64,000 nt of DNA from Gemmatimonadota bacterium (lineage in GTDB: Bacteria; Gemmatimonadota; Gemmatimonadetes; Gemmatimonadales; GWC2-71-9). Made by a program: the position numbers and the translations under genes. Within the stretch, counting starts at the first letter, position 1. Every line of letters begins with the position of its first letter. The DNA lies in the NCBI GenBank assembly GCA_003222085.1, contig QHUK01000017.1, positions 65,928-129,927 of the forward strand, in the 5' to 3' direction. The notes beneath the pieces were generated by a model. The model worked only from the letters and a program-made list of their open reading frames with translations. It ran no database searches and had not been told where the DNA came from. Below are positions 24,157-41,884 of the stretch, piece by piece.

Positions 24157-24210
24157 GGGATCCTGCGGAGAAACGTACGCGGTGAACCTGTCACCAAGCT
24201 GACAGGGCTG

Positions 24211-25793: not shown

Positions 25794-25802
25794 GCGACAC
25801 TC

Positions 25803-26869: not shown

Positions 26870-26922
26870 TCGTCTCTTCCTCGCCCGCCCTGCACCGGTC
26901 TGCACCGCCCTCGCCCGCCGTT

Positions 26923-28305
26923 TCACACCTCCACGACCTCGACGCACGGCGCCACCATCTGCTTATCGAGAAGCGCAGGCCAGTACGCCACGATCTCTTC
27001 CGGCTTCGGTCGTCCGCCTGCGAACCCGGTGACGCTGGGCGGCCCGTTCAGGATCAGCGGCGCGATCTCGCGCGTGAACCGCTCGACGGAGCTCTTGTCG
27101 GGCGACCGGACGCCGATCCGCAGCTGCACTTCCGGGAGACGGTCGAGGGGCGCCGTCGCGCGCGCCAACGGGCCGTGGGTCGCATCGACGCCGACGAACT
27201 CCGTCAGCACCGCCTCGAACGCGAGGCCGAGATCGGCGAGCCGCTGCCGGAGAATCCGATCCGCGGCCCGGGCCTTCTCGTAGGCATCGGGCCACGCGTA
27301 GACCAACGTGCCAACCGCCTTGTAGCCGTAGAAATAGCCGATCGACACCTTGAGCTGGTCCGTCGCCGGTCTCCCTCTGACACCCGACACCCGAACCCTG
27401 TCTTTCCCAGTCTGCTCGAGCCGGATCGTGGTGAAGTCCGCGACGCAGTCGGGGGTGATGTACTCCGCGGGATTTCCCATCTCGTAGACGAGCTGCTCGG
27501 TCACGCCCGCCACGCTGATCCGTCCGCCGGTGCCCGGATGCTTGCAGATCTCGAACGTCCCGTCCGGTGCCGCGTCCACGATCGGGTAGCCGACATTCGC
27601 GAGGTCGGGGACGCGCTGCCAGTCCACGAGGCTGTTGCCGCCGCTCGACTGCGCACCGCATTCGATCGTATGACCTGCGACCGTCCCGGCCGCGAGGAGG
27701 TCCCAGGCGTCGGGTTGCCACCCGAAGGCGTGCATCATGGGCGCGAGGGTGAGCCCCGTGTCGGTGACCCGACCCGTGACGACGATGTCCGCGCCCCCGC
27801 GCAGCGCCTCTACCACCGGCGAGGCGCCAAGGTACGCATTGGCCGACAGGACCCGGTCGCGCACGTCGGACAGCGGTCGGCCGGTGTCGAGGTTCCTGAG
27901 CTCGTGCCCGCGGGCCAAGAGGCCGTCCAAGCGGCCGAGCAGATCGTCCCCCGTCACGACCCCGATCCGGAGCTTGCCGCCCAGCCGCAGGCGGCGCGCG
28001 GTCTCGGCCACCGCCTGCGCGCACCCTCGGGGGTTCACGCCGCCCGCGTTGGCGGTGACCTTGATCCGCCGCTCCGCCACGATCGGGAGGATGCGTTCCA
28101 GCAACGGGATGAAGTCCGTCGCGTACCCGAGGGACGGGTCCCGCGCCTTCTGCTTCTGCAAGATGGACATCGTGACTTCGGCGAGGTAGTCCATCATCAG
28201 GTAGTCGACTGGTCCGCCGGTCACCTGGCGATACGGTGCTTCGAGCCAGTCGCCCCAGAACCCCTGCCCTGCGGCGATGCGCACCGTGGCGGGCCGCGGC
28301 GTCAC
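26923..28305 (-). CDS. Acyclic terpene utilisation AtuA-family protein (DUF1446 domain)
   Basis: [38 protein letters not shown] is the characteristic AtuA N-terminus. GTG at 28305 forms a GTGA overlap with the S8 peptidase stop. GTG at 28284 is an alternative start. Confidence 0.8.
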
Positions 28306-31136
28306 GGATTGACGACCACGCGGCGGGTCGCGTCGGGAGCCCCCACCGATCCGTGCACTCGCAGCTCCACCAGGGGCGCGAAGCCCTCGGGCAACGCCAG
28401 CTCCCGCGTCGGCTGGGCGGGGAGCGGGGCGCGTCCTCCCGGGAGCACCGTGATGTCCCGGCCGTTGCCGAGCGAGCGCGGCTCGCTCAGCAGGAAGCGC
28501 ACGCGCAGCGTCGCCCGCCACGCATGGATGCCCTTGTCACGTGCAAAGCCCGGATACAGCTCGATAGTGAGCGGACGCCCCCGCAACGACGCCGGCAGCG
28601 CGAAGGCTTGCCGCCCGAACGCGTACTCGAGGGGCCCCTGAGACACCTGCTGCCCCGCGGAATCGAACTCGGTCACGCCGAAGTCGGTGAACTCGCGCCA
28701 CCGCTCGCGCGGCAGCTCCACCTCGACTACCGCCGTCGCCGCCCAATCGGGCACCCAGACCGTGAGGCTCTCGGGCGTCGCACCACGGCCCGCCACCTCC
28801 AGGGCACGCTCCACGCCGAGGAGCGCCTGCGTGACGCGCCCGCTCACGATTGCCGGGCCCGGGTTCGTCGCTTCCCGGTCCGCGAGGGTCAGCGGAGCGA
28901 GCTGCGCGCGGACGGTCGCGGTGGCCCCGGACCGGGGCGGCGCGACGACGTCCAGCTCGTACACGCCCGGGACGGCATCGTCCGCGCGGACGGTGAACCG
29001 GGCCGTGCCCGGCTGGGATCCGCCGATCGGAACGATCGAATCGCGCGCGAGGTCTCGAAATGGCGCGCCGTTGGGCTCGTACAGGATCGCCCTGGCGGTC
29101 TGCTGTCCCGAGTCGGCGAGCGTCACGCTGGTGACGAGCGTGGCGCCCGGCTGTGCCACGCGGAGAAAGTAGCGGCGCACCTGGGCGGGGCCCACCGTGC
29201 GCCGCTCGTCATACAGGGGCTTGTCCGCGAGATCGTACGGGACGACCACGACATTGACGAGTCTGAACACCGGGCCGGCGAGGGCGTCGCTGGGATTCCA
29301 TGCCGTCACCGTTCCGACGTACACGCCCGGCGCGCCGAGGGCGGCGGCCGAGTAGGTCAGGGGGATCTCGGTCTCGTGGGATCCCGCCGGGAGGATCGCG
29401 GGGGCGGACAACCACGGGGCGTCACTCTTCAACGAGAATTGTGCAACCCGGAGTCCGGTGACGTGGCGCGCCTGGAATGTCTCGACCGTGTCGCCCGGCC
29501 CCGCCAGACCCTCGCGCCGGAACGCGGCCGACCCGCCGCCGGTGGACGCGCGCACCGCGTACCCGGAGCCCTGATGTCCCGCGAGCAGCCACCGGTACGC
29601 CCGCTCGAGCTGCGGCAGGCCGGCCCCCTGGTCGAGCACGCTCGCGCCGGGCAATCCGGCTGCGGCCGCGCGGAGCGCGGCGCTCACCTCGGCACCGTCC
29701 GGTCTGCGCCCCTCCTGTGCCAGCGCCGACATGAGACACGCCGCGAGGCCGGCCACGTAGGGGGCCGACATGCTCGTGCCGGCCTTGATCTCGTTTCCCG
29801 TGTCGAACGAGGGAACGGTCGAGAAGGCCCACCCCGGCGCGAGCAGGTCGGGCTTCGCGAACTGTCCGCCACGCCCGCTGAACGAGCCGACGAAGTCGCC
29901 CGCGACCGGCGGCGCACCATCCTGCTCGAGCGGGACGTAGATCCCCGGCAGCGCCGCGCCCACGGAGATCGCCAGGTCGGCAGACCCGGGCAGACCCACG
30001 GTGGAGAGGCCGGGCCCGTCGTTCCCGGCGCTGATCGCGAACACGATCCCGGGATGGGCGGTGACAAACGCGTTGACGATCGAGTCGAGGACCGCACGCT
30101 CGCCGGGCTCGTTCCCGATGCCCCAGCTCAGGTTCAGCACGAGCGGCAGGTTGCGCTGCTCGGCGAAGCGGGCGGCGTACTCCATCGCGTGCTGAATGCT
30201 GCCCGTTACCGAGATACCGCCCCGCGCGTCGTTCGCGATCTTCAGCCCGAGCAGCTGCGCGCCCGGGGCGACCCCGTCGAAGCCGACGACGTTGAACAGG
30301 TTGTGCCCCGCGGCGATGCCCGCGACGTGCGTGCCGTGCGCGTTGTTGTCGAACACGAAGGCGAGCGTCGGCACACCGCTCACTTCACCAAAGTTGGCGG
30401 CCAGCGTGATCGGCTTCGTGCCGATGGCGATCGTCTCGCGGCCCTGGCGGTAGTCGTGCAAGGGCATCTCGTCCTCGAACGAGCCGTCCAGGTTCGTGTC
30501 GATGAACGCGACCCAGCCGTCCGTCGCCTTCACGACGATCACGGGAAAGACATCGCTGTTGCTCCCGTCACCGTTGAGATCGCCGCCCGGCACTTTCCCG
30601 AGGGGACGCTCCGCCAGCTCGCCGGCATACCACGTGGTCGCGGACGTGAGCCGCCCGATGCGACCGGCGCCGGAGAGCGCCCGGCCGGCGATCGAGACGG
30701 TGCCGTCCCCCGCCGGGGTGACGGGCGTGAGCCGCACGACGCCTTCCCCGGAGAAATCCCGCACGTCCAGGGTCTTGGGCGCGCCGGTGCTCGTGACGAT
30801 CAGGCCGTCCACGCCCGGGTCCACGCCCGTGTCGAGAATGCCGATCAGGACGCCGCGCCCGTCGTAGGTGGGGTGCTTGGCGCGGAAGTCGTCGACGCCC
30901 GCGCTATGGAGGGGCATGAGGCCCACGAGCAGCGCGCGCGCCGGCGGCAGAATCGGCAATCGGCTCGCGACGCCCGTGGCGGTCGCTGGGGGTTGGGACG
31001 CCGATGGTGGCGCGCCGGGACCCGAGGCCGGGACGGGGGAGGAGGCCGGCGTCGGGCGCGTGGCCGGTGGCGGGGCGGAGCCGCCGCAGCCGGCGACGAG
31101 GGCGATGAGCAGCAACGGGATGCGGCACGATCTCAT
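28302..31136 (-). CDS. Subtilisin-like serine peptidase (S8 family), large lipoprotein
   Basis: 944 aa. Lipobox LIALVAGC. Catalytic triad motifs are [10 protein letters not shown] (Asp), [11 protein letters not shown] (His) and [14 protein letters not shown] (Ser). A long C-terminal beta-rich extension follows. ATGA overlap with the carboxyltransferase stop. Confidence 0.9.
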
Positions 31137-32713
31137 GGTTGACTCGGCAGCACGAACGCCCCGACGTGGGGGCCGGTGAATTCGTCAGTCGCCTCGAGGA
31201 GAAACGCGAGCGTATCGCGGGTCTCCTCGGGCAGCACGATCGCGTCCACAAAGCCGCGCGCGGCGGCGAATCGGGCGTCGAGCTGATGCTCGTAGTCCGC
31301 ACGCATCGCGTCGACGGCGGGGGCATTTTCGGGCTTTGCCGCGTCATTCCCGAAGACGGCCTGGATCGCCGACTCGCCTTCCATGACGCCCATCCGTCCG
31401 GTCGGCCACGAGACGATGAAGTCGGGATCGAATCCCTGCCCGGCCATCGCGTAGTAGCCCGCCCCCGAGGCATGGTTCACGGTGAGCACGAGTTTCGGCA
31501 CCGTCGCCGTCGCCATCGCCTCGACGAAGCGCGCCCCCGCGCGGATGATTCCCGAGTGCTCGGCTTCGGTGCCGACCATGAACCCCGAGACGTCCTGGAC
31601 GAACAGGAGAGGGATCCGCTCGCGGTCGGCGTTCTCGATGAAATAGGCCACTTTCTCCGCGCTCTCCGTATAAATGATGCCCCCGATCTTGGGCGCCCCG
31701 CCCTTCCCTCCGCCCTTCCGGCCCTTGATCACCCCGCGCGAGTTGGCGATGAGCGCGACCGTGCGGCCTTCGATGGCGCCGTGAGCGCAGATCATCTCGG
31801 GGGCGAGATCGGGCTGGAACTCGTCCAGCTTGTCCGCGTCGAGCACGCACTCGAGCACGGCGCGGACGTCATAGCTCATGCGGTGGTCCGACGGCAGCAG
31901 ATCATACAGCTCCTTGGGGTTGCGTTTGGGCTTGCCGCCGGGCGCGGGAGGCCGGAGCGTCCGCGGCAGGCGCGCCACGTAGTCCCGGATGCGTGCCAGG
32001 CACTCACGATCGTCCTTCGCGCGATAGTGCGCCACCGCGCTCACCGCCGTGTGCGTCACCGCGCCGCCGAGGGATTCCGCGTCCACCGTCTGTCCGGTCG
32101 CGCCCTTCACGAGGTTCGGGCCCCCCAACCCCATGAACGACGTGCCTTCGACCATGAAGATCACGTCCGAGAGGGCGGGCAGGTACGCGCCGCCGGCGAT
32201 GCACGGTCCCATGACGGCGGCGATCTGCGGCACGCGGAGGTAATGTCGCATGATCGAGTTGTAGTAGAAGATCCGCGCCGCGCCGTACTGGCCGGGGAAG
32301 ACGCCGCCCTGGTAGGGGAGATTCACGCCGGCCGAGTCCACGAGGTAGACGATCGGGATGCGCTGACGCATCGCGATCTCCTGGGCGCGGAGCATCTTCT
32401 TGATCGTCTCCGGCCACCAGGAGCCCGCCTTCACGGTGGCATCGTTCGCCACCACCACCACCGGCCGGCCCGCGATCCGACCCAGACCCGTGACCACACC
32501 CGCTCCGGGCGCCTGGCCGTCGTACTGGTCGGATGCGACCAGCAGGCCGATTTCGAACCAGGCACCGCCCTGGTCGAGCAGGGCCTCGATCCGCTCGCGG
32601 GCGGTCAGCTTTCCCTGGTCGTGCTGGCGGCGCACCTTGTCGCGCCCGCCGCCCTGCTCGAGGCGCCCTTTGAGCTCGCGGTATTCCGCGGTCAGGGTCT
32701 TGAGCCGGCTCAC
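31133..32713 (-). CDS. Acyl-CoA carboxylase carboxyltransferase (beta) subunit, methylcrotonyl-/geranyl-CoA carboxylase (MccB/AtuC) type
   Basis: 526 aa. Contains GKLTARERIEALLD, VVVANDATVKAGSWWPETIKK, IVYLVDSAGVNLPYQ and MGPCIAGGAYLPA. The AnDaTVKgG motif is of the MCC/GCC type rather than PccB (QDFTVxGGS). No biotin carboxylase or BCCP gene is present in the window. Confidence 0.85.
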   Translation of the reverse strand: MSRLKTLTAEYRELKGRLEQGGGRDKVRRQHDQGKLTARERIEALLDQGGAWFEIGLLVASDQYDGQAPGAGVVTGLGRIAGRPVVVVANDATVKAGSWWPETIKKMLRAQEIAMRQRIPIVYLVDSAGVNLPYQGGVFPGQYGAARIFYYNSIMRHYLRVPQIAAVMGPCIAGGAYLPALSDVIFMVEGTSFMGLGGPNLVKGATGQTVDAESLGGAVTHTAVSAVAHYRAKDDRECLARIRDYVARLPRTLRPPAPGGKPKRNPKELYDLLPSDHRMSYDVRAVLECVLDADKLDEFQPDLAPEMICAHGAIEGRTVALIANSRGVIKGRKGGGKGGAPKIGGIIYTESAEKVAYFIENADRERIPLLFVQDVSGFMVGTEAEHSGIIRAGARFVEAMATATVPKLVLTVNHASGAGYYAMAGQGFDPDFIVSWPTGRMGVMEGESAIQAVFGNDAAKPENAPAVDAMRADYEHQLDARFAAARGFVDAIVLPEETRDTLAFLLEATDEFTGPHVGAFVLPSQP

Positions 32714-32731
32714 GGAGGACTGCGGAATGGA

Positions 32732-33148
32732 CTAAGCCGACACATGCTCGGCTGCCCATTCCTCGATGTATCTCACGAGGTCGGATGTCGGGGTCCCGGG
32801 GCCGAACAGCTTGCCGATCCCCTGCTGCTGCAGGGCCTCCATGTCCGCCGGCGGAATGATGCCGCCGCCCGTCACCAGGACGTCGTCCCGTCCGGCCGCG
32901 ACCAGGAGCTGCTTGACACGCGGGAAGAGCGTCAGGTGTGCGCCCGAGAGGATCGACAGGCCGACGACGTCGACGTCCTCCTGGATTGCCGCTTGCGCGA
33001 TCATCTCGGGGGTCTGGTGCAGCCCCGTGTAGATGACCTCCATACCCGCGTCCCGCAGCGCCGCGGCCACCACCTTCGCGCCGCGGTCGTGCCCGTCCAG
33101 GCCGGGCTTCGCGACCAGCACCCGAATGGGGCGCTTCGAGCCGGGCAT
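32732..33148 (-). CDS. Methylmalonyl-CoA mutase, cobalamin-binding small subunit/domain
   Basis: 138 aa. [34 protein letters not shown] contains the DxHxxG B12 motif, followed by GLSILSGAH. Confidence 0.9.
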
Positions 33149-34260
33149 CAGCGACGGAACCGCAGCAGGCCGGCGAGCCCGTCCACGACGCGGCGCGCCC
33201 GCTCGTCGTACACGACGTCGACCTGGACGCGCTGGGCCAGGGCCTCCTCGATGGCATCGTCGATGCGCCGGTCGTCGTCCTGCCCGTCGGCGAGCAGGGT
33301 GCGGACCTGGCCGCGCTGGAGCGCCTTGAGGGTCGGCTCGATGCCGTTCACGGCCCAGCCGGTCCCGATGCCCTCCCGCACGGCCTCCGCGTGCGCGCGC
33401 TCCCAGGCGCGCTCGCGCTCCTCGCGCAACGAGAGCGCCGCCTCGCGCACTTCGGTCGCCGTGACGCGCTTGGGGTTCAATCGCACCACGCCCAGGACGA
33501 GATCGTGCAGGTAGGTGTGCAGGTGGGGCAGCAGGGCCGCGGCGTCGACGCCGATGCCGGCGACCACGAGCCCGGCGAGCGGACGCTGGGTGTGGACCTG
33601 GAAGATGCGGTCCGCGACCTGGGCGTAGTGTCGCTGCCGCTCCTCCCGAATCCGCATGTGGTAGTTGTGCTCGCCGAAGCCACCCGCGAGCATGTGGCCC
33701 CGCTTCGCCTGGCGCTCGCCGTGGAACTTCCCCGGTCGCGTCGCCTCCGCGGTCAGGCTGGGCAGCTCCACGACGTCATACGCGGTCACCTCGAAGAACC
33801 GTGCACTGGTGCGGTCGCACGCGGCGACGAGGATGGTGCCGAATTCCTCCTCGAGCGCCACCAGCTCCCGCACCAGGGGCACGGGAGCGACCGCGAGCCG
33901 CGAGCGGTGGACGTGCGGGAGGGGGAGGGCCTCGAACAGGTCGAGTGCGCCGCAGGCAAACAGCGCGATCCCGCGTGCCGGCGGCAGCCGCGTCGGCTCC
34001 GCGAAGTACGCCTGCACGCGCTCCAGGTCCGCCGCCACCTGGGCCCGGAGCGCGCGGTCGAGCACCTGGCGCTCGAGGGCGGCGAGTGCCTCGCGGATGC
34101 GGTTCTTGATCTTGATGAGATACTTGCCCCGGGTCTTGTCCCGGGGCTCGAGTTTCAGGTAGCACGACACGACCTGATACGCGCCGGGCTGGACGTGCGA
34201 CAACCGCTCGACCGCGGCGCGCACCGCGCTCTCGTTGGCGGAGATCGGCAGGGCGGTCAT
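33148..34260 (-). CDS. aeRF1/Pelota-like (bacterial baeRF-type) protein of unknown function
   Basis: 370 aa. The C-terminal third, ...[29 protein letters not shown]...[26 protein letters not shown], follows the eRF1/Pelota domain-2/3 pattern (yG..ev..Al..GaV.tLLi ... gGIaAlLRf). The central region is [24 protein letters not shown]. The one-nt TGATG overlap with the downstream B12 subunit gene supports that this is a real CDS. Confidence 0.5.
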
Positions 34261-34263
34261 GGC

Positions 34264-35829
34264 CTAAAAGAACACCGGCTCGCGGTACGCGCCGTAGACG
34301 CTCTCGAGCGCGTGCCGGATCTCGTACAGGGTGCAGTACGCGCGGGCGCAGTCCAGCATCGGGCCGATCACGTTCTCGTCGGCGCGGGCCGCCCGACGCA
34401 ACGCCTCGAGCCGCTCCGCGACGAGCGCGTTGTCGCGCCCGGCCCGCAGGCGCGCGAGCCGGCGTCGCTGCCCCTCCTCGGCGTCGTCCGAGACCTTGAG
34501 GATCTCGACGGGGTGGTCGTCCGCGCTCAGGTAGTCGTTCACGCCGACCAGGATGCGATCGCCGGCCTCGACCCCGCGCTGGCACTCCTCCGCGGAGCGC
34601 GCGATCTGCCGCTGGAACCAGCCGCTTTCGATTCCCTTCACCACGCCGCCCACCGACTGGATCTCCGCGAACAACCCCTCCGCTTCCCGCTCGAGCTGGT
34701 CGGTGAGCGATTCCACGTAGTAGGACCCGCCGAATGGGTCGATCACGTCCACGACACCGGTTTCGTGTGCGATGATCTGCTGCGTCCGGAGCGCCAGACG
34801 GACCGCCTCCTCGGTGGGAAGCGCGAGCGTTTCGTCCAGCGAGTTGGTGTGGAGCGACTGCGTGCCGCCGAGCACCGCCGCGAGCGCCTGGTAGGCGACC
34901 CGGACCAGGTTATTCATCGGTTGTTGCGCCGTGAGGGTAACCCCCGCGGTCTGGGAGTGGAACCGCATCATCGCGGAGCGCGGGTTCTGCGCGCCGTAGC
35001 GCTCCTGCATGTGCCGGGCCCAGATGCGGCGGGCCGCGCGGAGCTTCGCGATCTCCTCGAAGAAATCGTTGTGGATATCCCAGAAGAAGGAGAGGCGTGG
35101 CGCGAACGCGTCCACGTCCAGCCCGCGCGCGATGCCCCGCTCGACGTAGGTGAACCCATTGGCGAGCGTGAACGCGAGCTCCTGCGCCGCGGTCGCTCCT
35201 GCCTCCCGAATGTGGTAGCCGGAGATCGAGATCGTGTTCCACAGCGGCGTGTGCGTGGCGCACCACTCGAACATGTCCACGATGATCTTGAGGGCGGGCT
35301 CGACGGGGTACACCCAGGCGTGCTGGGCCATGTACTCCTTGAGGATGTCGTTCTGTACCGTGCCGCGCAGCGCGGTGCTCGGCACGCCCTGCTTCTCGGC
35401 CGCGGCGACGTAGAAGCAGAACAACATCGCCGCGGGCCCGTTGATGGTCATCGAAGTCGAGACTTGATCGAGCGGGATGCCACGGAACAGGTCTTCCATG
35501 TCGGCGAGCGATGAGATCGCGACGCCGCACTTGCCCACCTCGCCTTCGGCGCGCGGGTGGTCGGAGTCGTAACCCATGAGCGTGGGGAAGTCGAACGCCA
35601 CCGACAGGCCGGTCTGCCCGTGCTCGAGCAGGAACTTGTAGCGCCGGTTCGTGTCTTCCGCGCTCCCGAACCCCGCGAACTGCCGCATCGTCCACAGCTT
35701 CCCCCGGTACATCGTCGGATGGATGCCGCGGGTGAACGGATAGCCGCCCGGCGCCCCTAACCGGTTGCGCGGGTCGAAGCCGGCGAGGTCGTCCGGCGTG
35801 TAGACCGGCTTTTTCTCAATGCCGCTCAT
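34264..35829 (-). CDS. Methylmalonyl-CoA mutase, large (substrate-binding TIM barrel) subunit
   Basis: 521 aa. Contains [47 protein letters not shown] and [16 protein letters not shown]. It lacks the B12 domain, which is encoded separately at 32732..33148. Confidence 0.92.
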
Positions 35830-36896
35830 CGGGTCGCGTCCCCTCCCTCCCCTGCCTTGACCTGATCGAGGATCTCAGCCGCGACGTCGTAGGGGCTCCG
35901 CCGGCCGTCCGCGACTTCGTCCAGCCGCAGGGCCAGCAGCTCCTCGACGCGTGTTGCTTCCAGAAGCCAGCGCCTGAGCTTGCGCTCCAGAACCGCGCGC
36001 GTCCGCGCCGCCAGGCGCTGCCGCCGTCGCTCGGCGAGCGTGCCGCTCGCTTGAAGATAGGCGTAATGGCGATCGAGAGCAGCCGCGAGCTCGTCGACGC
36101 CGGTGCCCGTCGTGGCCGCGGTGGCGAGCACCGGCGGCTCCCACTGAGAATCGGCGGGGCCCTGCCCCGTCCTCCCCCGTCCTCCCCCGCCCTTCCCCGC
36201 CCGGGGCGGTGCCGGGTGGTGGGGAGAGATGTGCCGGAACGCATTCCCCCGCCGGATGCCCAGCATTACTTCGACCTCCTGTCGAAACTTGTCCGCGCCC
36301 GGACGGTCGCTCTTGTTCACCACGTAAATGTCGGCGATCTCCATGACCCCGGCCTTCAGGGCCTGAATCCCGTCGCCCGATTCGGGCACGAGCACCAGGA
36401 CCGTCGTCTCCGCGCTGCGCGCGATGTCGAGCTCCGTCTGACCGACGCCCACCGTCTCCAGCAATACGCGCTCGAAGCCGAACGCCTCGAGCAGATCGGC
36501 GACCTCTTCCGTCGTGGTGGCAAGCCCGCCCTGCGCGCCCCGCGTCGCCATCGAGCGGATGAACACACCCGGGTCGAGGCTGCCGGATTCCATCCGGATC
36601 CGGTCCCCGAGCAGCGCACCGCCGGTGAACGGGCTCGTCGGATCGACGGCCACGACGCCGACCGAGAGGCGGCGGGCGCGAAACCGCTGGATCAGCGCCT
36701 CGGTGAGCGTGCTCTTGCCGGCGCCGGGGGGACCGGTGATCCCGACCCGCCGCGTGCCGCCGCGCCCGAGCAAGCCGTGCGCGTGCGACAACACGCGCTC
36801 GAACCCGTTGTGCTGGTTCTCGACCAGGGTGATGGCGCGGGCCAACGCAACGGGGTCACGCCGGGCGAGCCCCTCGAGAATCCGCTCCGTCGTCAC
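35826..36896 (-). CDS. meaB: Methylmalonyl-CoA mutase-associated GTPase MeaB/ArgK, with a repeat-encoded internal insertion
   Basis: 356 aa with GTG at 36896. P-loop [13 protein letters not shown], plus ETVGVGQ and VVNKSD. Between HH and W.PPV it carries about 20 extra residues ([21 protein letters not shown]) encoded by decamer repeat copy D. Confidence 0.9.
36161..36228. repeat. Decamer-array repeat, copy D (C-rich arm x4 plus short partial G-rich return), inside meaB
   Basis: cctgccccgt cctcccccgt cctcccccgc ccttccccgc cc, followed by ggggcggtgccgggtggtggggagag. It uses the same unit (complement NNGGGGGAGG) as copies A-C and is in frame within the meaB CDS. Confidence 0.7.
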
Positions 36897-36910
36897 GCAA
36901 GACTCATGCT

Positions 36911-38110
36911 TCAGATCCGCTCGTCGGCGCGCTCGAGCGGCACGGTCCGCACCGGCCCCGGCCGGACCGCGACGCGCTCCACGCGGGTGGCCGTGGCGGC
37001 GAGAATGTCGAACTCGAGCCCGTGGAGCGCGAAGCGCTCCCCCGGTCGCGGAATGCGGCCCAGCGCCTGCACGAGCAGCCCGGCCACCGTCTGGACCCCG
37101 CGCGCGGCCAGCGTGACGCCCAGCGCCTCCTCGAGCCGGCTGGCCGGGGCGCTTCCCTCCAGCTCGACGATCCGGACGGGCGCCTCGTCGGCGGGGGGCG
37201 GTTCCCCCGATTCGAAGATCTCCGACACCAGGTCGCGGAGCAGGTCCTCGAACGTGACCAGGCCGGCCGTCCCGCCGAACTCGTCCAGCACGACGGCGAG
37301 GTGGCTCCGGCCGCGCTGCATTTCCAGCATGAGATCGGCCGCCCGCGTGGTACCCGGCACGAGGATCGCCGGCAGGGTGGGAACGGGCGCGTCGGGCGGC
37401 AGACGGAGCAGATCGAACGCATGCGTCACGCCGACGACGTCATCGAGCGATCCCCGGTACACCGGATATCGGCTGTAGCCCGATTGGAGGCACACGTGCG
37501 CCGCCTCCGCGGCGAGCAGGCCTTCGGGAAGGGCCACGATCGACGTGCGGGGCGTCATCAGCTCCCGCACGGGCCGGTCCGCGAAGGCCAGCACGCCCGA
37601 CACGACCGCCATTTCGTCCGCGGACGCGAGCGCCTCGGTGTCGGCGTTGGTGAGCACGGCCGCGAGCGTCGTGCGGGTCGAGGGGTCGCGCCAGGGGACG
37701 AAGGGGGCGAACGCGCGGCCGAGCTTCTCGAGCCGCGGTGCCGCGTGCGCCACGATCGGCTCCGCCCAGCGCCGGCCCACCACGCGCGGCACGAGGTACG
37801 CGGCGCTCAGGAGCAACGGGATCCCCAGTGCGATGGTGAACACGCCGAGCACCGTCGGCGTCGTGCGGGCGAGGAGCGCGGGGATGGCGGTCGCTGCGCA
37901 GAGGATGCCGATCGTCGTCAGGGCGTTCGCGGTCGCGAGCACCCGCCCCGGGTTCTCGAGCACCCCGGCCGCGCCGCCGGAGCCGCGCAGCTTGTACGAT
38001 ACCCAGCGAGTGAGCTCGAGCTGGCTCACGGCCGCCGCGGCGACACCCACGGCCGCCGACGCGGCCGCGAGGAGCAGCCCGCTCACGAGCAGCAGGGCGG
38101 GCAGGGTCAC
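36911..38110 (-). CDS. CNNM/CorC-type transporter-associated protein (DUF21 membrane domain, CBS pair, CorC_HlyC)
   Basis: 399 aa. N-terminal hydrophobic DUF21-like region, a CBS pair (VRELMTPRTSIV ... YSRYPVY), and the C-terminal motifs HLAVVLDEFGGTAGLVTFEDLL and GERFALHGLEFDI. Confidence 0.85.
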   Translation of the reverse strand: MTLPALLLVSGLLLAAASAAVGVAAAAVSQLELTRWVSYKLRGSGGAAGVLENPGRVLATANALTTIGILCAATAIPALLARTTPTVLGVFTIALGIPLLLSAAYLVPRVVGRRWAEPIVAHAAPRLEKLGRAFAPFVPWRDPSTRTTLAAVLTNADTEALASADEMAVVSGVLAFADRPVRELMTPRTSIVALPEGLLAAEAAHVCLQSGYSRYPVYRGSLDDVVGVTHAFDLLRLPPDAPVPTLPAILVPGTTRAADLMLEMQRGRSHLAVVLDEFGGTAGLVTFEDLLRDLVSEIFESGEPPPADEAPVRIVELEGSAPASRLEEALGVTLAARGVQTVAGLLVQALGRIPRPGERFALHGLEFDILAATATRVERVAVRPGPVRTVPLERADERI

Positions 38111-39300
38111 CGTTGCCTCTGGAGCAGCACGCTGGTCACCCGGCGTCGGTCCACCCGCTCCACCACGACCTGATACCCGTCGAGCGTCAGCTCGTCGCCG
38201 GCGCGGGGCACGCGCCCGAGGACCGAGTAGACGAGGCCGCCCACCGTCGAGACTTCCGGGTGCTCGAAGGGGCGCCCCAGCGCCTGCGAGAGGTCGTCGA
38301 GCGTGACTCGTCCATCCACCCAGTAGCGGTCGCCGTCCTGACGGATCGAGGGCGCTTCGCCCACGTCGTGCTCGTCGTGGATTTCTCCGACGATCTCCTC
38401 GAGGATGTCCTCGAGCGTGATGAGCCCGGACGTGCCGCCGAACTCGTCGACCACGATCGCGAGATGTGCGGGGCCCCGCTGGAAGTCACGGAGCTGGCTG
38501 TCGAGCGTTTTCGTCTCCGGCACGAAGGCCGCGGGCCGCACCAGATCCTGCCAGCGTGGGGCGGCGGTGGCGCCTTCCCCGCCGAGACCCATGGCGAACG
38601 GCACCAGGTCCTTCGCGAAGACGACGCCGGCGATGGTGTCCGGCGTCCCGTCGTACACGGGGAGACGCGAGTGCTCGCTTTGTCGAAATGCCTCGATCAC
38701 GTCGTCGCTGGGCGCCGCGAGGTCGACGGCGACCATGTCCAGCCGGGGCGTCATGACCTCGTCCACGCGCGTGTCCGCCAGCGTGAACACGCCGAGCAGC
38801 ATGTCGCGTTGCGCGGCGCCGAGATCGGGCTCGAGGGGGCGCGGCGTCGCGACGAGGCCGTGCAGGCCCTTGTCGACCCACGCGAGGAGCCAGAGGAGCA
38901 GGCCGAACGGCGCGAGGGTGCGGCGCGCGAGCGGCAGCGCGGTCGCGGCGAGCTCGGGCGCGACCCGGGCCAGGCTCCGCGGCAGCGCGTCACCGACGAT
39001 GAACAGGAACGTCGCCGCCACCGCCCAGCTTCCCAGCGCCTCCGCCCAGGGCCGGTCCCACCAGCCGAGGGCGTGGCCCGCCGCGACCGCGCCGAGGACG
39101 AGGAGCGCGAGGCGGGCCACGTGCAGCGCGCGGTGCAACGGCACGCGCGCGCCGACGGTCGTGGGCGGCGCGTCGCCCAGCGTATGGAGTGCCTCACCCA
39201 CGGCGGCCTCCTCCCCGAGGGCCAAGAGGCCGGCCCACAGCGCCGCCGCCCCGGCCACCAGGGCGCCGCCCAGGGTCAACGCCGCGCCCGTGAACGTCAT
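38107..39300 (-). CDS. CNNM/CorC-type protein (DUF21, CBS pair, CorC_HlyC), paralog of the downstream gene
   Basis: ATG at 39300 (MTFTGAALTLGG...) forms an ATGA overlap with the ybeY stop. Contains VDEVMTPRLDMV, HSRLPVY, HLAIVVDEFGGTSGLITLEDILEEIVGEI and GDELTLDGYQVVV. Confidence 0.85.
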   Translation of the reverse strand: MTFTGAALTLGGALVAGAAALWAGLLALGEEAAVGEALHTLGDAPPTTVGARVPLHRALHVARLALLVLGAVAAGHALGWWDRPWAEALGSWAVAATFLFIVGDALPRSLARVAPELAATALPLARRTLAPFGLLLWLLAWVDKGLHGLVATPRPLEPDLGAAQRDMLLGVFTLADTRVDEVMTPRLDMVAVDLAAPSDDVIEAFRQSEHSRLPVYDGTPDTIAGVVFAKDLVPFAMGLGGEGATAAPRWQDLVRPAAFVPETKTLDSQLRDFQRGPAHLAIVVDEFGGTSGLITLEDILEEIVGEIHDEHDVGEAPSIRQDGDRYWVDGRVTLDDLSQALGRPFEHPEVSTVGGLVYSVLGRVPRAGDELTLDGYQVVVERVDRRRVTSVLLQRQR

Positions 39301-39749
39301 CGTTCCGCCCCCCGGCGCCCGAGCACCCGGTGAACGTAGCGCTCCTGGCGGCGCCACATGGCGGAGCGCGTTCGGCCCGGCCCGTCGGGGTGGTCGTAGC
39401 CGAGGACGTGCAACGTGCCGTGCACGGTCAACCGCACGAGCTCTTCCTCCACCCGTCGCGCGTCCCCCGTGCCTCGTCCTCCGTTCCTCACCCAGCGCTC
39501 CGCGGCGGCGGGGCAGATGTACACGTCGCCGAGGAGGGCACCGTCGGGTTGTGGCAGCGCGAACGCCAGGACGTCGGTCAGGCCGCGCCGGCCGGTGACG
39601 CGGCGGTTGAGGCGGCGCATGGCGGCGGCGTCGAGCAGCGCGAGCTCCACGCGCGCGCGCCTGCCCCGGGCGCCTTCCCAGGCCAAGATCTGCCCCACCG
39701 CGCGCTCAAGCCTTGGCCGCAGGTTGCCACGTCGCCGTGATGCCGCCAC
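39297..39749 (-). CDS. ybeY: Endoribonuclease YbeY (rRNA maturation factor)
   Basis: 150 aa with TDVLAF and the zinc motif HGTLHVLGYDH. The start at 39749 overlaps the upstream gene by 44 nt. GTG at 39698 is a shorter alternative. Confidence 0.85.
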   Translation of the reverse strand: MAASRRRGNLRPRLERAVGQILAWEGARGRRARVELALLDAAAMRRLNRRVTGRRGLTDVLAFALPQPDGALLGDVYICPAAAERWVRNGGRGTGDARRVEEELVRLTVHGTLHVLGYDHPDGPGRTRSAMWRRQERYVHRVLGRRGAER

Positions 39750-41883
39750 TGGACTCCGGATAGTCGATGCGGTTGTGGTACATGCCGGTGATGATGCGCA
39801 CGAATTCCTGTTTCACCTGGTCGATCTGCCGCAATGTCATGGGCGCCTCGTCGAGCTGACCGGCGTTCAGCTTGGTGCGCACGATATGGTCGATCACCTC
39901 TGCGATTTTCTGCGGCGTCAGGTCCTCGAGCACGCGCAGCGCCGCCTCGACCGAGTCCGCGAGCATCGTAATGGCCGTCTCGGCGGAGTGCGGCTTGGGC
40001 CCGGGGTAGACGTAGTCGCTCGGGCGCGGGGTCCCGCCGTCGCCGCTCTTCTTCGCGCGGTCCAGGAAGTACGTAATCTCGGTTGTGCCGTGGTGCTCCG
40101 GAATGAAGGCCGCCACGGCTTCGGGCAGCCTCGCCTCGGCGGCGAGGACGAGCCCGTCCGTGACGTGCGCCTTGATGATCTGGGCCGACTGATGGGCTTT
40201 GAGCCGGTCGTGCGGGTTGTTGCCGCGCGTCTGGTTCTCGACGAAGTACTGCGGGTTCTTGATCTTCCCGATGTCGTGGTAGTAGCACCCCACGCGACCG
40301 AGCAGGCCGTCGGCGCCGATCCGGTTGCAGGCCGCTTCCACGAGGTTCGCCATGGCCACGGAATGGGCATAGGTCCCCGGCGCCTCGAGCGACAGCCGTC
40401 GCAACAGCGGCCGGCTGGGGTCGGAGAGCTCGAGCAGGGTGAGGTCGGTCGTGATGCCGGTGATCGACTCGGCGACCGGCAACAGGAAGAACGTGAGCCC
40501 GGCCGACACCAGGCCGTTCGCCGCGCCCCACACTCCCCGAAGGCCGATTTCCGCGACCGTCCAGCTCCCGGCGAGGCCCAGCGCGACGGCGCCCGCGAGA
40601 TACCCGAGCGCGATGATCAGCACCGGCACGTAGAAGTTGCTCCGGCGACGCAGCACCCGCACCGTGAGGGCTGCCGTGACGCCACCGACGACACACAGGA
40701 ACAGAGCGGGCAGGTCGTGGAACACCGGCTGCAGGCCGATCACGATCGCGAGGATCATGGCGGCGATCATCGAGACACGCCCGTTGAACAGGACCGTCAG
40801 CAGCATGGCCATGAAGGGCAGGATGATGATCTCGGCGTGCTGCGGGGCGAAGCGCGCCACGGCCGCCGCCTGCAGCAGCACGAGCGCGAACAAGCCGCCG
40901 ATCAACGCGACCTGCCGTCGCTCGCGATACGTCTCGCGGCGGTAAAACACCAACAGCACCCAGAAGATCGCGAGGATGAGCGAGTCCCGGAGGACGGGCC
41001 CGAACACACCGCCGGGCGAGCGGCTGGTCGCCGCGCCGCGGCGGACCAGGTCCGAATGCAGCGCCACGAGCTTCTCGTGGGCCTCGTTCGTCACCACTTC
41101 GTGCGCGCCCACGATGCGGTCCCCGGCGCGCACGATGTATTTGCTCGGGTCCACGCTGCGGCGGAGCTCGTCACGCCGCCGCTCGGTCTCGAGCGTGTTG
41201 GGGATGAGCGTCGGTCGGAAAAAATGTCCCGCGAGCCGGACGTAGAGCTGGTCGCCGACGCTCGAGCCTTTGTCGGGGTGAATGGCGCGGGCCCGCGTGA
41301 GGTATTGCGCATACGTGAGCACCTGGTCGCGCGACACCGACTGCTCGCCCGAGCGGCGGCGCACGATGAGCTCCGGAGCCTGTTCGACCTGCAGCACACC
41401 CGGCCCGGTCACCCCGAGCGCCAGCGCGCGGTCGAACAGCTCGCTCAGCGCCCGCTCCAGGGCGTGCCGCTTGCCGCCCTTGGCCAGGTAGGCGGCCTCC
41501 GGGGCTCCCAGGGCGAACCCGTGGGCTTTCGCCACCTGGAGGATCGCCGCCGCTCCGCCCTGGTCCGCCGCGGTCTCCACGCTCGAGAAAAACGCGTGCA
41601 TGGCGATCTTCGCGCTGTCGAGCGCCCGCTCCTGGTACTGATAGATCGGCTTCACGGTGCTCGCGAGCTCCTCCGCCTCGCGCGCGAGCTCCTGATCCGA
41701 CTTGTTGACCGGGAACGTGAACGGGGCGATCACGTCGCGATCCGCCACCGCGCCGGGCTCGAGCAGCGGCGCCACGTTGGTCGCGCTCGAGGGAAACACG
41801 AGGGATGCGAGCAGCGCCAGGCCCACCACCCACGCCCAGCGGCTGCCGTGATAGCGCAGCTCCTCCTTCGTGGGGAGCCTCAT
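39706..41883 (-). CDS. 7TM-receptor-linked HD phosphohydrolase (PgpH/YqfF type)
   Basis: 725 aa. N-terminal extracellular region, a block of seven hydrophobic helices, and a C-terminal HD domain (HSVAMANLVEAA, CYYHDIGK, IPEHHGTT). Confidence 0.85.
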   Translation of the reverse strand: MRLPTKEELRYHGSRWAWVVGLALLASLVFPSSATNVAPLLEPGAVADRDVIAPFTFPVNKSDQELAREAEELASTVKPIYQYQERALDSAKIAMHAFFSSVETAADQGGAAAILQVAKAHGFALGAPEAAYLAKGGKRHALERALSELFDRALALGVTGPGVLQVEQAPELIVRRRSGEQSVSRDQVLTYAQYLTRARAIHPDKGSSVGDQLYVRLAGHFFRPTLIPNTLETERRRDELRRSVDPSKYIVRAGDRIVGAHEVVTNEAHEKLVALHSDLVRRGAATSRSPGGVFGPVLRDSLILAIFWVLLVFYRRETYRERRQVALIGGLFALVLLQAAAVARFAPQHAEIIILPFMAMLLTVLFNGRVSMIAAMILAIVIGLQPVFHDLPALFLCVVGGVTAALTVRVLRRRSNFYVPVLIIALGYLAGAVALGLAGSWTVAEIGLRGVWGAANGLVSAGLTFFLLPVAESITGITTDLTLLELSDPSRPLLRRLSLEAPGTYAHSVAMANLVEAACNRIGADGLLGRVGCYYHDIGKIKNPQYFVENQTRGNNPHDRLKAHQSAQIIKAHVTDGLVLAAEARLPEAVAAFIPEHHGTTEITYFLDRAKKSGDGGTPRPSDYVYPGPKPHSAETAITMLADSVEAALRVLEDLTPQKIAEVIDHIVRTKLNAGQLDEAPMTLRQIDQVKQEFVRIITGMYHNRIDYPESSGGITATWQPAAKA

Positions 41884-41884
41884 G

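What the first reader, a model, noticed from the sequence alone, without database searches (positions are those of the whole stretch)
33148..34260. An aeRF1/Pelota-like gene sits between the two subunits of methylmalonyl-CoA mutase
The split mutase genes (large subunit 34264..35829, B12 subunit 32732..33148) are separated by a 370-aa ORF.
- **Coupling.** It starts 3 nt after the large-subunit stop. Its own stop overlaps the B12-subunit ATG by one nt (TGATG).
- **Fold resemblance.** Its C-terminal third has the eRF1/Pelota domain pattern ([19 protein letters not shown] ... [10 protein letters not shown]). This suggests it belongs to the bacterial aeRF1-like (baeRF/Vms1-like) proteins, whose biological roles in bacteria are essentially untested.
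- **Context.** A translation-termination or ribosome-rescue fold, translationally coupled inside a cobalamin-enzyme operon that also encodes the MeaB chaperone, is not an association I know to be described.
It may be a repurposed fold, for example acting as an assembly or repair factor for the mutase, rather than a ribosome factor.
Basis: partly seen in the sequence, partly recalled or inferred. Interest (0 to 1): 0.62.

Follow-up and report, generated by a model that had tools for sequence, protein, structure and literature searches.

The report
Balon-like ribosome factor inside mutase operon
The gene wedged between the two subunit genes of a vitamin-B12 acyl-CoA mutase in this soil Gemmatimonadales genome encodes a relative of Balon, a protein that parks on idle ribosomes; that kind of protein is known, but its conserved placement here, and the loss of Balon's EF-Tu hairpin in this lineage, are unreported in the literature I could search and remain unexplained.

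Summary
A 370-aa ORF (33148..34260, minus strand) starts 3 nt after the mutase large-subunit stop, and its TGA overlaps the B12-subunit ATG.

It is a genuine gene under purifying selection (dN/dS 0.10-0.30). Soil metatranscriptomes contain exact-match fragments of it.

The fold call is right but outdated. The protein is a baeRF-family member whose closest characterised relatives are the Balon ribosome hibernation factors. An AF2 model (pLDDT 88) matches ribosome-bound Msmeg1130 (TM 0.68-0.70), and a family profile hits it at E 3e-22. The protein has no GGQ or NIKS.

The order MeaB-mutaseL-X-mutaseS-carboxyltransferase holds in 80/80 and 23/23 sampled Gemmatimonadales loci, down to 43% identity of X. 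However, the mutase does not need X:
- At least four lineages lost X and kept the operon intact.
- The same slot elsewhere holds a HAD hydrolase, a methyltransferase or a lipoprotein.

The most likely role is a non-catalytic ribosomal A-site brake or hibernation factor, co-expressed with a branched-chain acyl-CoA catabolic operon. A mutase assembly factor is less likely.

Two refinements:
- The window's subclade has deleted the C-domain hairpin that Balon uses for EF-Tu.
- The "methylmalonyl-CoA mutase" carries a Phe/Gln (isobutyryl-CoA-mutase-like) active-site signature; the genome's Tyr/Arg MCM lies elsewhere.

The parts
35826..36896 (-). MeaB/MeaI-type G-protein chaperone of the mutase; first gene of the conserved five-gene block
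   Evidence: Pfam MeaB 292 bits, TIGR00750 316 bits. It lies upstream of the mutase in all sampled loci whose flank reaches that far.
34264..35829 (-). Acyl-CoA mutase large (substrate-binding) subunit with a Phe/Gln, IcmA-like active-site signature
   Evidence: PF01642 741 bits. The best PDB hit is HcmA 4r3u at 551 bits, against about 490-500 bits for the solved MCMs. It reads RQFAGF and EYMAQHAW where the solved MCMs read RQYAGF and EFMVRNTY. All 50 orthologues examined read RQFAGF.
34258..34266 (-). Junction TAG-GCC-ATG: large-subunit stop, 3-nt spacer, start of the Balon-like gene
   Evidence: Read directly from the sequence. The same 3-nt spacer occurs in 47 of 59 orthologous loci, and the spacer is never above 4 nt.
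33148..34260 (-). Balon-like baeRF protein, 370 aa, three aeRF1-type domains, no GGQ and no NIKS
   Evidence: Pfam baeRF_family10 and family3 score above their cut-offs. The AF2 model has pLDDT 88.4 and pTM 0.79. Foldseek's best match is 8v9j_z, Msmeg1130 Balon, at E 2.4e-21 and TM 0.68/0.70. Profile A2 hits the same chain at E 3.4e-22. dN/dS is 0.10-0.30.
33880..34260 (-). N-terminal domain (aa 1-127). It includes the most conserved segment of the protein, aa 30-56 [27 protein letters not shown] (nt 34093-34173).
   Evidence: The segment is 81% identical even in operon copies that are only 43-53% identical overall. C33 Y34 K36 E38 P39 D41 K46 Y47 K52 N53 R54 are invariant. The segment aligns to the N-domain strand-loop of Msmeg1130 (VVSLYFNADPTQ...LRNR) and of P. 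urativorans Balon (SIFVKTHREHP...LKNQ), which is where Balon's HP motif lies.
33376..33879 (-). Middle (RNase-H-like, PTC-reaching) domain, aa 128-295. It has a variable loop at aa 172-196, GGFGE where eRF1 has GGQ (nt 33670-33684), and an Arg-rich helix [17 protein letters not shown] (nt 33625-33675).
   Evidence: The Pfam baeRF models cover aa 128-317. The loop is the least conserved region (32% identity) and varies in length. Q184 and the GGx third residue are not conserved, while G196 E197 R203 E207 are invariant. Loop pLDDT is 52-70.
33151..33375 (-). C-terminal (eRF1 domain-3 / Pelota / L7Ae-like) domain, aa 296-370. The insert present in relatives is missing at aa 324-335 [12 protein letters not shown] (nt 33256-33291).
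   Evidence: It hits the aRF1 3agk C-domain. More distant operon copies carry about 29 extra residues here (PGFRCxxSGRL...CRGEGE), f9/f12 copies carry a CxxC...CxxC zinc ribbon, and Msmeg1130 has an insert at the same place. [quoted passage not shown]
33146..33150 (-). Junction TGATG: stop of the Balon-like gene overlaps the start of the B12-binding subunit by one base
   Evidence: Read directly from the sequence. The same overlap is found in 18 of 18 loci where both ends align.
32732..33148 (-). Mutase small (B12-binding) subunit, 138 aa
   Evidence: PF02310 94 bits, TIGR00640 174 bits.
31133..32713 (-). Acyl-CoA carboxyltransferase (beta) subunit; last gene of the conserved five-gene block
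   Evidence: PF01039 437 bits. [quoted passage not shown]

Best explanation
The ORF encodes a Balon-type member of the bacterial aeRF1-like (baeRF) superfamily. It is a three-domain tRNA-shaped protein that has lost both the stop-codon-reading motif and the peptide-release motif.

Most likely mechanism:
- The protein binds the ribosomal A site without catalysis.
- The N-domain loop sits at the decoding centre.
- The Arg-rich helix of the middle domain sits near the peptidyl-transferase centre.
- The C-domain sits at the factor-binding site.
- Binding brakes translation and protects idle ribosomes.

The gene is translationally coupled between the two subunit genes of an IcmA/IcmB-like B12 acyl-CoA mutase. 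It is therefore made whenever, and roughly as much as, this branched-chain acyl-CoA catabolic operon is expressed. That operon forms a gene run with a carboxyltransferase, an exported S8 peptidase, AtuA and a crotonase. The link is one of shared expression, not a role in the enzyme itself, because the mutase works without the protein in lineages that lost it. The window's lineage has also deleted the C-domain hairpin through which Balon contacts EF-Tu, so any EF-Tu partnership must differ here.

Shown: homology, fold, loss of motifs, conserved position, purifying selection, dispensability for the operon.

Inferred: ribosome binding, the hibernation role, and the reason for the co-expression.
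For: Family and fold:
- Pfam baeRF_family10 and family3 score above their cut-offs.
- There are weak but full-length NCBIfam hits to the MSMEG_1130 and Rv2629 ribosome-hibernation-factor families.
- A profile of 19 family members hits PDB Msmeg1130 Balon at E 3.4e-22 over the whole length. It then hits Rv2629 at 1.8e-15, aRF1 at 6.5e-14, Pelota at 4.5e-11 and P. urativorans Balon at 7.6e-11.
- The AF2 model has pLDDT 88.4.
- The whole model superposes on ribosome-bound Msmeg1130 at TM 0.68-0.70 and RMSD 4.8 A. It superposes on P. urativorans Balon at TM 0.61-0.64. Most aRF1/eRF1 chains give only 0.27-0.49.

Motifs and conservation:
- There is no GGQ or NIKS.
- The loop is variable in length and sequence, while the Arg-rich helix and the N-domain core are invariant. 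Burroughs and Aravind tie this pattern to non-catalytic A-site binding.

Relatives outside the operon:
- The nearest relatives outside the operon form a starred sister clade with variable contexts. One of them sits next to HSP20, a context reported for Balon.

Position and selection:
- Synteny holds in 80/80 and 23/23 loci, with conserved coupling junctions.
- dN/dS is 0.10-0.30.
- Exact-match metatranscriptome fragments lie inside the gene.

Dispensability for the mutase:
- Lineages with an empty slot are nested inside clades that carry the gene.
Against: - No experiment touches this protein, so ribosome binding is inferred from homology only.
- The NCBIfam equivalog scores are far below their cut-offs (43.8 against 480), so it is not an orthologue of the tested mycobacterial proteins.
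- The window's subclade lacks the beta-hairpin that the Balon authors regard as highly conserved and important.
- The His of Balon's HP motif is not present. The aligned loop reads L-E-P-R-D.
- The context is a metabolic operon, not one of the stress operons described for Balon.
- This clade of the family is found only inside the mutase operon, in more than 100 species. That is more specific than simple co-expression would require.
- No metatranscriptome contig spans a gene junction, and DNA carry-over in those libraries cannot be excluded.
Confidence: 0.6

Rival explanations
1. The protein has been repurposed as a dedicated accessory of the mutase. It could be an assembly scaffold for the split large and small subunits, or a partner of the MeaB chaperone in B12 loading or repair. 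In this reading it no longer acts on ribosomes.
For: - The position between the two subunit genes is strict, with translational coupling, in more than 100 species down to 43% identity.
- Members of this clade were never seen outside the operon.
- The EF-Tu hairpin is lost in the window's subclade.
- The gene evolves at about the same rate as MeaB.
Against: - At least four independent losses leave MeaB-L-S-CT intact with L and S adjacent.
- The same slot holds a HAD hydrolase, a methyltransferase or a YscW-like lipoprotein in other lineages, so the position alone is a weak argument.
- The strongest conservation is in the N-domain loop and the Arg-rich helix, which contact rRNA in Balon and aeRF1.
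- The predicted overall shape matches ribosome-bound Balon.
- MeaB is a SIMIBI-class GTPase, unrelated to the EF-Tu-type partners of this fold (established knowledge).
Confidence: 0.12
2. The protein binds ribosomes but serves as a sensor or coupler rather than a general hibernation factor. It would tie translation, of the operon itself or globally, to the state of the B12/acyl-CoA pathway, for example by also contacting the B12 subunit or MeaB.
For: - It combines ribosome-type conservation with an exclusive, coupled position inside the mutase operon.
- A separate paralogue with variable context exists in many of the same genomes, which suggests division of labour.
Against: - No sequence feature points to a ligand- or partner-binding site.
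- The gene was lost repeatedly without loss of the operon.
- The window's own genome has only this one copy, so here it must also cover any general role.
Confidence: 0.15
3. The protein is an active release or rescue factor, that is, a peptidyl-tRNA hydrolase like aeRF1 or a splitting factor like Pelota. Burroughs and Aravind suggested this for Pfam baeRF family 10.
For: - The best Pfam match is baeRF_family10, the family noted as keeping a conserved glutamine.
- The window protein has Q184 in the loop and a GG at positions 193-194.
Against: - GG is followed by F, Y, A or I, not Q.
- Q184 is deleted in three close orthologues and replaced in the distant ones.
- Loop length is unconstrained.
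- No eRF1_1/2/3 Pfam hit was found.
Confidence: 0.05
4. The gene is a neutral passenger in a permissive insertion site and has no selected function.
For: - The L/S slot accepts unrelated genes.
- The gene has been lost several times.
Against: - dN/dS is 0.10-0.30.
- The full-length frame is intact in more than 100 species.
- The coupling junctions are conserved.
- There are 36 invariant residues across copies 43-100% identical.
Confidence: 0.03

Closest known systems
Balon ribosome hibernation factors: M. smegmatis Msmeg1130 (PDB 8v9j, 8v9l), M. tuberculosis Rv2629 (8v9k), P. urativorans Balon (8rd8, 8rdv, 8rdw); Helena-Bueno et al. 2024, PMC10901736
   Same: - It has the same three-domain aeRF1-type architecture.
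- It gives the best fold match (TM 0.68-0.70, E 2.4e-21) and the best profile match (E 3.4e-22).
- It has no GGQ and no NIKS.
- The N-domain strand-loop is conserved at the place of Balon's decoding-centre motif.
- More distant operon copies share an insert at the C-domain hairpin site.
   Different: - Sequence identity is only 13-20%, and it scores far below the NCBIfam equivalog cut-offs.
- The C-domain hairpin is deleted in the window's subclade.
- The His of the HP motif is absent.
- It is encoded inside a B12 mutase operon rather than next to RaiA, Hsp20 or other stress genes.
- Ribosome binding is untested.
Pfam baeRF_family10 (PF18854) and baeRF_family3 (PF18845); baeRF-1 clade of Burroughs and Aravind 2019, PMC6514570
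   Same: - It scores above the gathering thresholds of both models.
- It shows the pattern described for non-catalytic baeRF-1 proteins: a variable catalytic loop plus conserved arginines in the following helix.
   Different: - Family 10 was highlighted as keeping a conserved catalytic glutamine, and this clade does not.
- The described conserved neighbour is HPF/RaiA. Here HPF is on another contig.
Archaeal/eukaryotic release factor aeRF1 (e.g. PDB 3agk, 4af1, 1dt9)
   Same: - It has the same fold and domain order.
- The C-terminal domain is recognisable by sequence, ending ...GLAGLLRFR against ...GLAGILRFR.
   Different: - It has no GGQ, no NIKS and no zinc ribbon or mini-domain.
- Whole-chain TM is only 0.27-0.49.
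- It cannot be a stop-codon-dependent hydrolase.
Pelota/Dom34 ribosome rescue factor (e.g. PDB 3j15, 3wxm)
   Same: It is a non-catalytic member of the same superfamily and an A-site binder. The profile hits it at E 4.5e-11 over the middle and C domains.
   Different: The N-domain is not Pelota-like. No partner GTPase or ABCE1-type splitting context is present. The structural similarity is weaker than to Balon.
M. tuberculosis mutA-mutB-mazE4-mazF4-meaB arrangement (recalled from memory, not checked here)
   Same: It is another case in which a translation-inhibiting module sits inside a B12 mutase/MeaB gene cluster.
   Different: The proteins are unrelated (an mRNA interferase toxin-antitoxin pair). 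The position differs, lying between mutB and meaB. I did not verify this with the tools.

Membership tests
Balon family of ribosome hibernation factors | Three-domain aeRF1-like architecture (N, middle, C) | tested here: met
   The AF2 model has pLDDT 88.4. Foldseek aligns it full-length to 8v9j_z at TM 0.68/0.70. Profile A2 aligns to residues 19-375 of Msmeg1130 at E 3.4e-22.
Balon family of ribosome hibernation factors | Absence of the GGQ (peptide release) and NIKS (stop codon) motifs | tested here: met
   The protein contains no GGQ or NIKS string. The GGQ position reads GGF, GGY, GSA or GTI across orthologues, and no loop glutamine is conserved.
Balon family of ribosome hibernation factors | HP motif in the N-domain that contacts the decoding centre | tested here: inconclusive
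   The aligned strand-loop is the best-conserved part of the protein, and E38-P39 are invariant. It reads LEPRD, against DP in Msmeg1130 and HREHP in P. urativorans. The alignment register is uncertain.
Balon family of ribosome hibernation factors | Beta-hairpin insertion in the C-domain that contacts EF-Tu | tested here: not met
   The window protein and its 33-member subclade lack the roughly 29-residue insert that the other operon copies and Msmeg1130 have at this site. The feature is defined in PMC10901736.
Balon family of ribosome hibernation factors | Lasso loop and bL27 trap in the middle domain | not testable with these tools
   The loop at aa 172-196 is variable and has low confidence (pLDDT 52-70). 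No residue-level structural alignment to 8rdv was available.
Balon family of ribosome hibernation factors | Binds the ribosomal A site and inhibits translation | not testable with these tools
   This needs biochemistry or cryo-EM.
Balon family of ribosome hibernation factors | Typical stress-response gene neighbourhood (RaiA, Hsp20, OsmC/Y, HdeD, RtcB...) | tested here: not met
   The neighbours are MeaB, the mutase subunits and a carboxyltransferase. HPF is on another contig. A sister-clade metagenome relative does sit next to HSP20.
NCBIfam NF052288 MSMEG_1130 family / NF052289 Rv2629 family ribosome hibernation factor (equivalogs) | Score at or above the curated cut-off | tested here: not met
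   It scores 43.8 bits against a cut-off of 480, and 32.3 bits against 320. It is a distant relative, not an equivalog member.
Pfam baeRF_family10 (PF18854) | Score at or above the gathering threshold | tested here: met
   It scores 40.2 bits against 27.1 over residues 128-276.
Pfam baeRF_family10 (PF18854) | Conserved catalytic-loop glutamine noted for this family by Burroughs and Aravind | tested here: not met
   Q184 is absent or replaced in many orthologues, and no other loop glutamine is conserved.
aeRF1 class-I release factor | GGQ motif at the tip of the middle domain and NIKS/YxCxxxF codon-reading motifs | tested here: not met
   No Pfam eRF1_1/2/3 hit was found.
Methylmalonyl-CoA mutase (for the flanking enzyme) | Tyr89 and Arg207 (P. 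shermanii numbering), which bind the substrate carboxylate | tested here: not met
   The window enzyme reads Phe (RQFAGF) and Gln (EYMAQHAW). Human, M. tuberculosis and P. shermanii MCMs read Tyr and Arg in the same alignments. All 50 orthologues examined read Phe. A second mutase in the same genome reads RQYAGF and EFIARGTY. The meaning of these residues comes from my own knowledge of the MCM and ICM literature.

The most novel reading that the evidence does not exclude
This clade of Balon-like proteins is a dedicated coupler between a B12-dependent branched-chain acyl-CoA pathway and the ribosome. It would be made in fixed ratio with the mutase and would act on ribosomes in an EF-Tu-hairpin-independent way. 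It might also read the state of the B12 subunit or MeaB, so that translation is throttled according to flux or cofactor status of one catabolic enzyme. That would be a direct enzyme-to-ribosome regulatory link of a kind not yet described for hibernation factors.
Probability: 0.12. Interest if true: 0.8.

Novelty: new variant of a known kind. Interest (0 to 1): 0.45.

Why it matters
Balon was described only in 2024, and its relatives are reported in stress operons. Here one clade has been held for a long evolutionary time between the two subunit genes of a metabolic enzyme, translationally coupled on both sides, across two sampled families of an abundant order of soil bacteria. Part of that clade has dropped the hairpin thought to be central to Balon's partnership with EF-Tu.

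If the protein is a ribosome brake, this gives:
- a natural case of hibernation-factor synthesis hard-wired to a starvation-type catabolic operon;
- a natural hairpin-less Balon with which to test what the EF-Tu contact is for.

If it instead acts on the mutase, it would be the first non-ribosomal job for this fold.

In either case it corrects two routine annotations: 'peptide chain release factor subunit 1' for this gene and 'methylmalonyl-CoA mutase' for its neighbours.

Tried and rejected
- **Single-sequence and narrow-profile PDB searches.** These found only the aRF1 C-domain. A wider family profile was needed to reach Balon.
- **First AF2 model.** It was built from 34 close homologues and had an unreliable C-domain (pLDDT 72). 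I replaced it with a model from a more diverse alignment.
- **Catalytic glutamine.** Q184 and GG193-194 were rejected after aligning distant orthologues.
- **Junction-spanning transcripts.** Soil metatranscriptome contigs lie within genes only, so co-transcription is not shown.
- **Regulatory elements.** There is no Rfam family (for example a cobalamin riboswitch) in 24000-44000. There is no sigma-70-like promoter in 31000-37200. Two terminator-like hairpins were found, which is no more than the shuffles give.
- **Conserved neighbourhood for the second paralogue.** None was found.
- **Literature.** Searches for baeRF or Balon together with mutase, and the supplements of the two key papers, returned nothing relevant. 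Searches for a paper stating the ICM Phe/Gln signature also failed, so that point rests on my own knowledge plus the alignments.
- **Database oddities.** P0044 (a fusion to the B12 subunit) and P0004 (an internal deletion) are frameshifted or truncated assembly variants, not natural fusions.
- **Not attempted.** I did not run evolutionary-rate covariation, because five linked genes give no usable background. AlphaFold-multimer is not available here.
Full report
**Observation.**
- The sequence reads TAG-GCC-ATG at the junction with the mutase large subunit.
- It reads TGATG at the junction with the B12-binding subunit.
- The flanking genes are a MeaB-type GTPase, a mutase large subunit, a B12-binding small subunit and a carboxyltransferase.

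Long ORFs occur on every strand of this GC-rich DNA, so I tested coding status separately.
- GC3 is 0.94 and GC2 is 0.44.
- dN/dS against 16 orthologues is 0.10-0.30. MeaB gives 0.12-0.24 and the mutase subunits about 0.04-0.15.
- The big protein collection holds 2398 homologues, most of them unnamed; where a source names them it is 'peptide chain release factor subunit 1' or 'hypothetical protein'.
- Four soil metatranscriptome runs, from the study that also holds the DNA, contain short contigs lying inside the gene, four of them with zero mismatches (33475-34184). None spans a junction, and DNA carry-over cannot be excluded.

**What the protein is.**
- Pfam places it in baeRF_family10 (40.2 bits, cut-off 27.1) and family3 (35.9, cut-off 31.5).
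- NCBIfam gives weak, near-full-length matches to the MSMEG_1130 and Rv2629 'ribosome hibernation factor' families, far below their equivalog cut-offs.
- A profile built from 19 diverse relatives hits the PDB chain of Msmeg1130 (Balon) at E 3.4e-22 over residues 19-375. It then hits Rv2629 at 1.8e-15, aRF1 at 6.5e-14, Pelota at 4.5e-11 and P. urativorans Balon at 7.6e-11.
- An AlphaFold2 model from that alignment has mean pLDDT 88.4 and pTM 0.79. Only the loop at 171-200 is uncertain.
- Foldseek ranks ribosome-bound Msmeg1130 first (E 2.4e-21, TM 0.68/0.70, rmsd 4.8 A). P. urativorans Balon gives TM 0.61-0.64. Most aRF1 and eRF1 chains reach only 0.27-0.49 over the whole chain.

Balon and its two mycobacterial homologues were shown in 2024 to occupy the ribosomal A site of idle and translating ribosomes. 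They lack NIKS and GGQ (PMC10901736).

**Motifs.**
- The protein has no GGQ and no NIKS.
- Where eRF1 has GGQ, the orthologues read GGF, GGY, GSA, GGI or GTI. Q184 in the preceding loop is deleted in three close orthologues and replaced in the distant ones. The loop varies in length.
- The loop is the least conserved part, at 32% identity to the window protein in distant copies.
- The N-domain segment [27 protein letters not shown] is the most conserved, at 81% in the same distant copies. G196, E197, R203 and E207 of the Arg-rich helix are invariant.
- That N-domain segment aligns with the strand-loop of Msmeg1130 and P. urativorans Balon that holds Balon's decoding-centre 'HP' motif. Here it reads E-P, and the register is uncertain.
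- Burroughs and Aravind described exactly this pattern, a free loop with a conserved basic helix, for non-catalytic baeRF-1 proteins that they predicted to insert into the A site. They singled out family 10 as possibly catalytic because of a conserved glutamine, which this clade does not have.

**Conservation of the position.** The organism is a soil Gemmatimonadales MAG.
- In 80 of 80 loci from distinct species genomes, the order MeaB, large subunit, X, small subunit, carboxyltransferase is kept wherever the contig reaches. X is 62-94% identical and the mutase 72-96%.
- In 20 further genomes from a phylum-wide sample the same order holds with X at 43-53% identity. This set includes one genome of a second family, and three more genomes of that family show the same order.
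- The 3-nt spacer and the 1-nt overlap are themselves conserved.
- In the phylum sample, 169 of 401 genomes have a relative. That covers 158 of 167 genomes of the window's own family, five of a second family, and none of a third family of the same order.
- The window's genome has this one copy only. It has an HPF/RaiA gene on another contig.

**The mutase does not need it.**
- In the genomes checked from five genera of the window's own family, and in two of three genomes of another class, the large and small subunit genes are directly adjacent in an otherwise identical operon.
- On a tree of the large subunit, these empty lineages are nested inside well-supported clades whose other members carry X. 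Starred branches force at least four changes.
- The slot is not specific to X. It carries X plus a HAD hydrolase in some lineages, the HAD hydrolase alone in one, a class-I methyltransferase in the third family, and a YscW-like lipoprotein in one genome.

The gap between the two subunit genes therefore tolerates cargo in this phylum. Position by itself is weak evidence for a role in the enzyme.

**Relatives outside the operon.**
- Many genomes of the family have a second paralogue elsewhere, with no conserved neighbourhood.
- In a tree of 76 family members these copies form a starred clade together with metagenome proteins. One of those sits next to an HSP20 gene, a neighbourhood reported for Balon.
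- The operon copies are compatible with a single origin, but the backbone of the tree is unresolved.

**The hairpin.**
- Most operon copies carry a roughly 29-residue insert in the C-domain (PGFRCxxSGRL...CRGEGE).
- Copies from two other families of the phylum have a full CxxC...CxxC zinc ribbon at that site, and Msmeg1130 has an insert of similar length there.
- The Balon paper describes a C-domain beta-hairpin insertion that contacts EF-Tu and is highly conserved among Balon homologues.
- The window protein belongs to a 33-row clade with 100/100 support in which this insert is deleted ([12 protein letters not shown]).
- I equate the site of the insert with the Balon hairpin from the profile alignment, not from a residue-level structural superposition.

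**The enzyme.**
- In the PDB alignments, the position of P. shermanii Tyr89 (RQYAGF) reads Phe and the position of Arg207 (EFMVRNTY) reads Gln.
- Human, M. tuberculosis and P. shermanii MCMs have Tyr and Arg. The 2-hydroxyisobutyryl-CoA mutase HcmA, the best PDB hit, has Ile and Gln.
- All 50 orthologues examined read RQFAGF. A second mutase on another contig of the same genome reads RQYAGF and EFIARGTY.
- From my own knowledge, Phe/Gln is the isobutyryl-CoA mutase signature. I could not find a held paper that states it.
- The wider gene run holds an AtuA protein, an S8 peptidase and a carboxyltransferase. It follows a ybeY-corC cluster, and this arrangement is kept across most of the sampled loci of the order.

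**Reading.** The best-supported explanation is a Balon-type, non-catalytic ribosomal A-site factor. Its synthesis is tied by translational coupling to an operon for branched-chain acyl-CoA catabolism. Such a regulon plausibly switches on when cells scavenge amino acids, which would be a sensible time to silence and protect ribosomes. That last step is inference.
- I give the main reading about 0.6.
- A sensor or coupler that still works on ribosomes gets about 0.15.
- A dedicated mutase accessory gets about 0.12.
- An active hydrolase or a neutral passenger gets a few percent each.

**Literature and earlier notes.** Neither the Balon paper, nor its supplements held here, nor the baeRF paper mentions a mutase, B12 or Gemmatimonadota. 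A full-text search for Balon with mutase found nothing relevant. Earlier notes of this scan on five other genomes reached the same Balon-like reading. I re-derived each point here and count those notes as agreement, not as evidence.

Noticed in passing
window 34264-35829 and 32732-33148; second mutase at G000:C36:8553-10088 (L158): The split mutase has Phe/Gln where the solved methylmalonyl-CoA mutases have Tyr89/Arg207, and its best PDB hit is HcmA. A second, apparently fused mutase (718-aa open frame) elsewhere in the genome has the Tyr/Arg signature. The operon enzyme is probably isobutyryl-CoA-mutase-like (IcmA/IcmB with a MeaI-type chaperone), not MCM.
   Followed up: partly
L093, L094, L096, L102, L127, L128 (HAD after the Balon-like gene); L129 (HAD only); L112-L119 (methyltransferase); L123 (YscW-like lipoprotein): The gap between the mutase large- and small-subunit genes is a variable cargo site in Gemmatimonadota. 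Depending on lineage it holds the Balon-like gene, that gene plus a HAD hydrolase, the HAD alone, a class-I SAM methyltransferase, a lipoprotein, or nothing.
   Followed up: partly
L134-L141 (second paralogue); L142, L143 (283-297 aa copies lacking the N-domain); L150 (P0140 next to HSP20): Many genomes of the family hold a second Balon-like paralogue with no conserved neighbourhood. Genus g2, which lost the operon copy, keeps only a truncated form without the N-terminal domain in two of four genomes.
   Followed up: partly
C-domain insert site: window 33256-33291; L144-L148 for the zinc-ribbon forms: There is a graded series at one site. Two other families of the phylum have a full CxxC...CxxC zinc ribbon, most operon copies have a two-Cys hairpin, and the window's subclade has a clean deletion. 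Some metagenome relatives (363-369 aa) have lost the insert independently.
   Followed up: partly
window 36911-41883 (-): Directly upstream on the same strand lie two CorC/CNNM-CBS genes, ybeY (the 16S rRNA maturation endoribonuclease) and a 7TM-HD protein. The order HD7TM-YbeY-CorC-CorC-MeaB-mutase...S8-AtuA is kept across most sampled loci of the order. The first CorC gene ends 14 nt before MeaB, so the transcription unit may be longer than five genes.
   Followed up: partly
proteins P0044 (502 aa) and P0004 (353 aa): Database versions of this same gene include a frameshifted read-through into the B12 subunit and a copy with an internal deletion. Both look like assembly or gene-calling artefacts and could be mistaken for natural fusions.
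   Followed up: yes
window 34272-34288 (-): A terminator-like hairpin with a T-run overlaps the last codons of the large subunit, just before the Balon-like start. The number of such sites in the region (2) is no more than shuffled sequence gives (1.7), so it is probably chance.
   Followed up: no
window 36150-36230 (-), inside meaB: MeaB carries a Gly/Arg-rich stretch ([20 protein letters not shown]) that interrupts its alignment to the MeaB profile.
   Followed up: no
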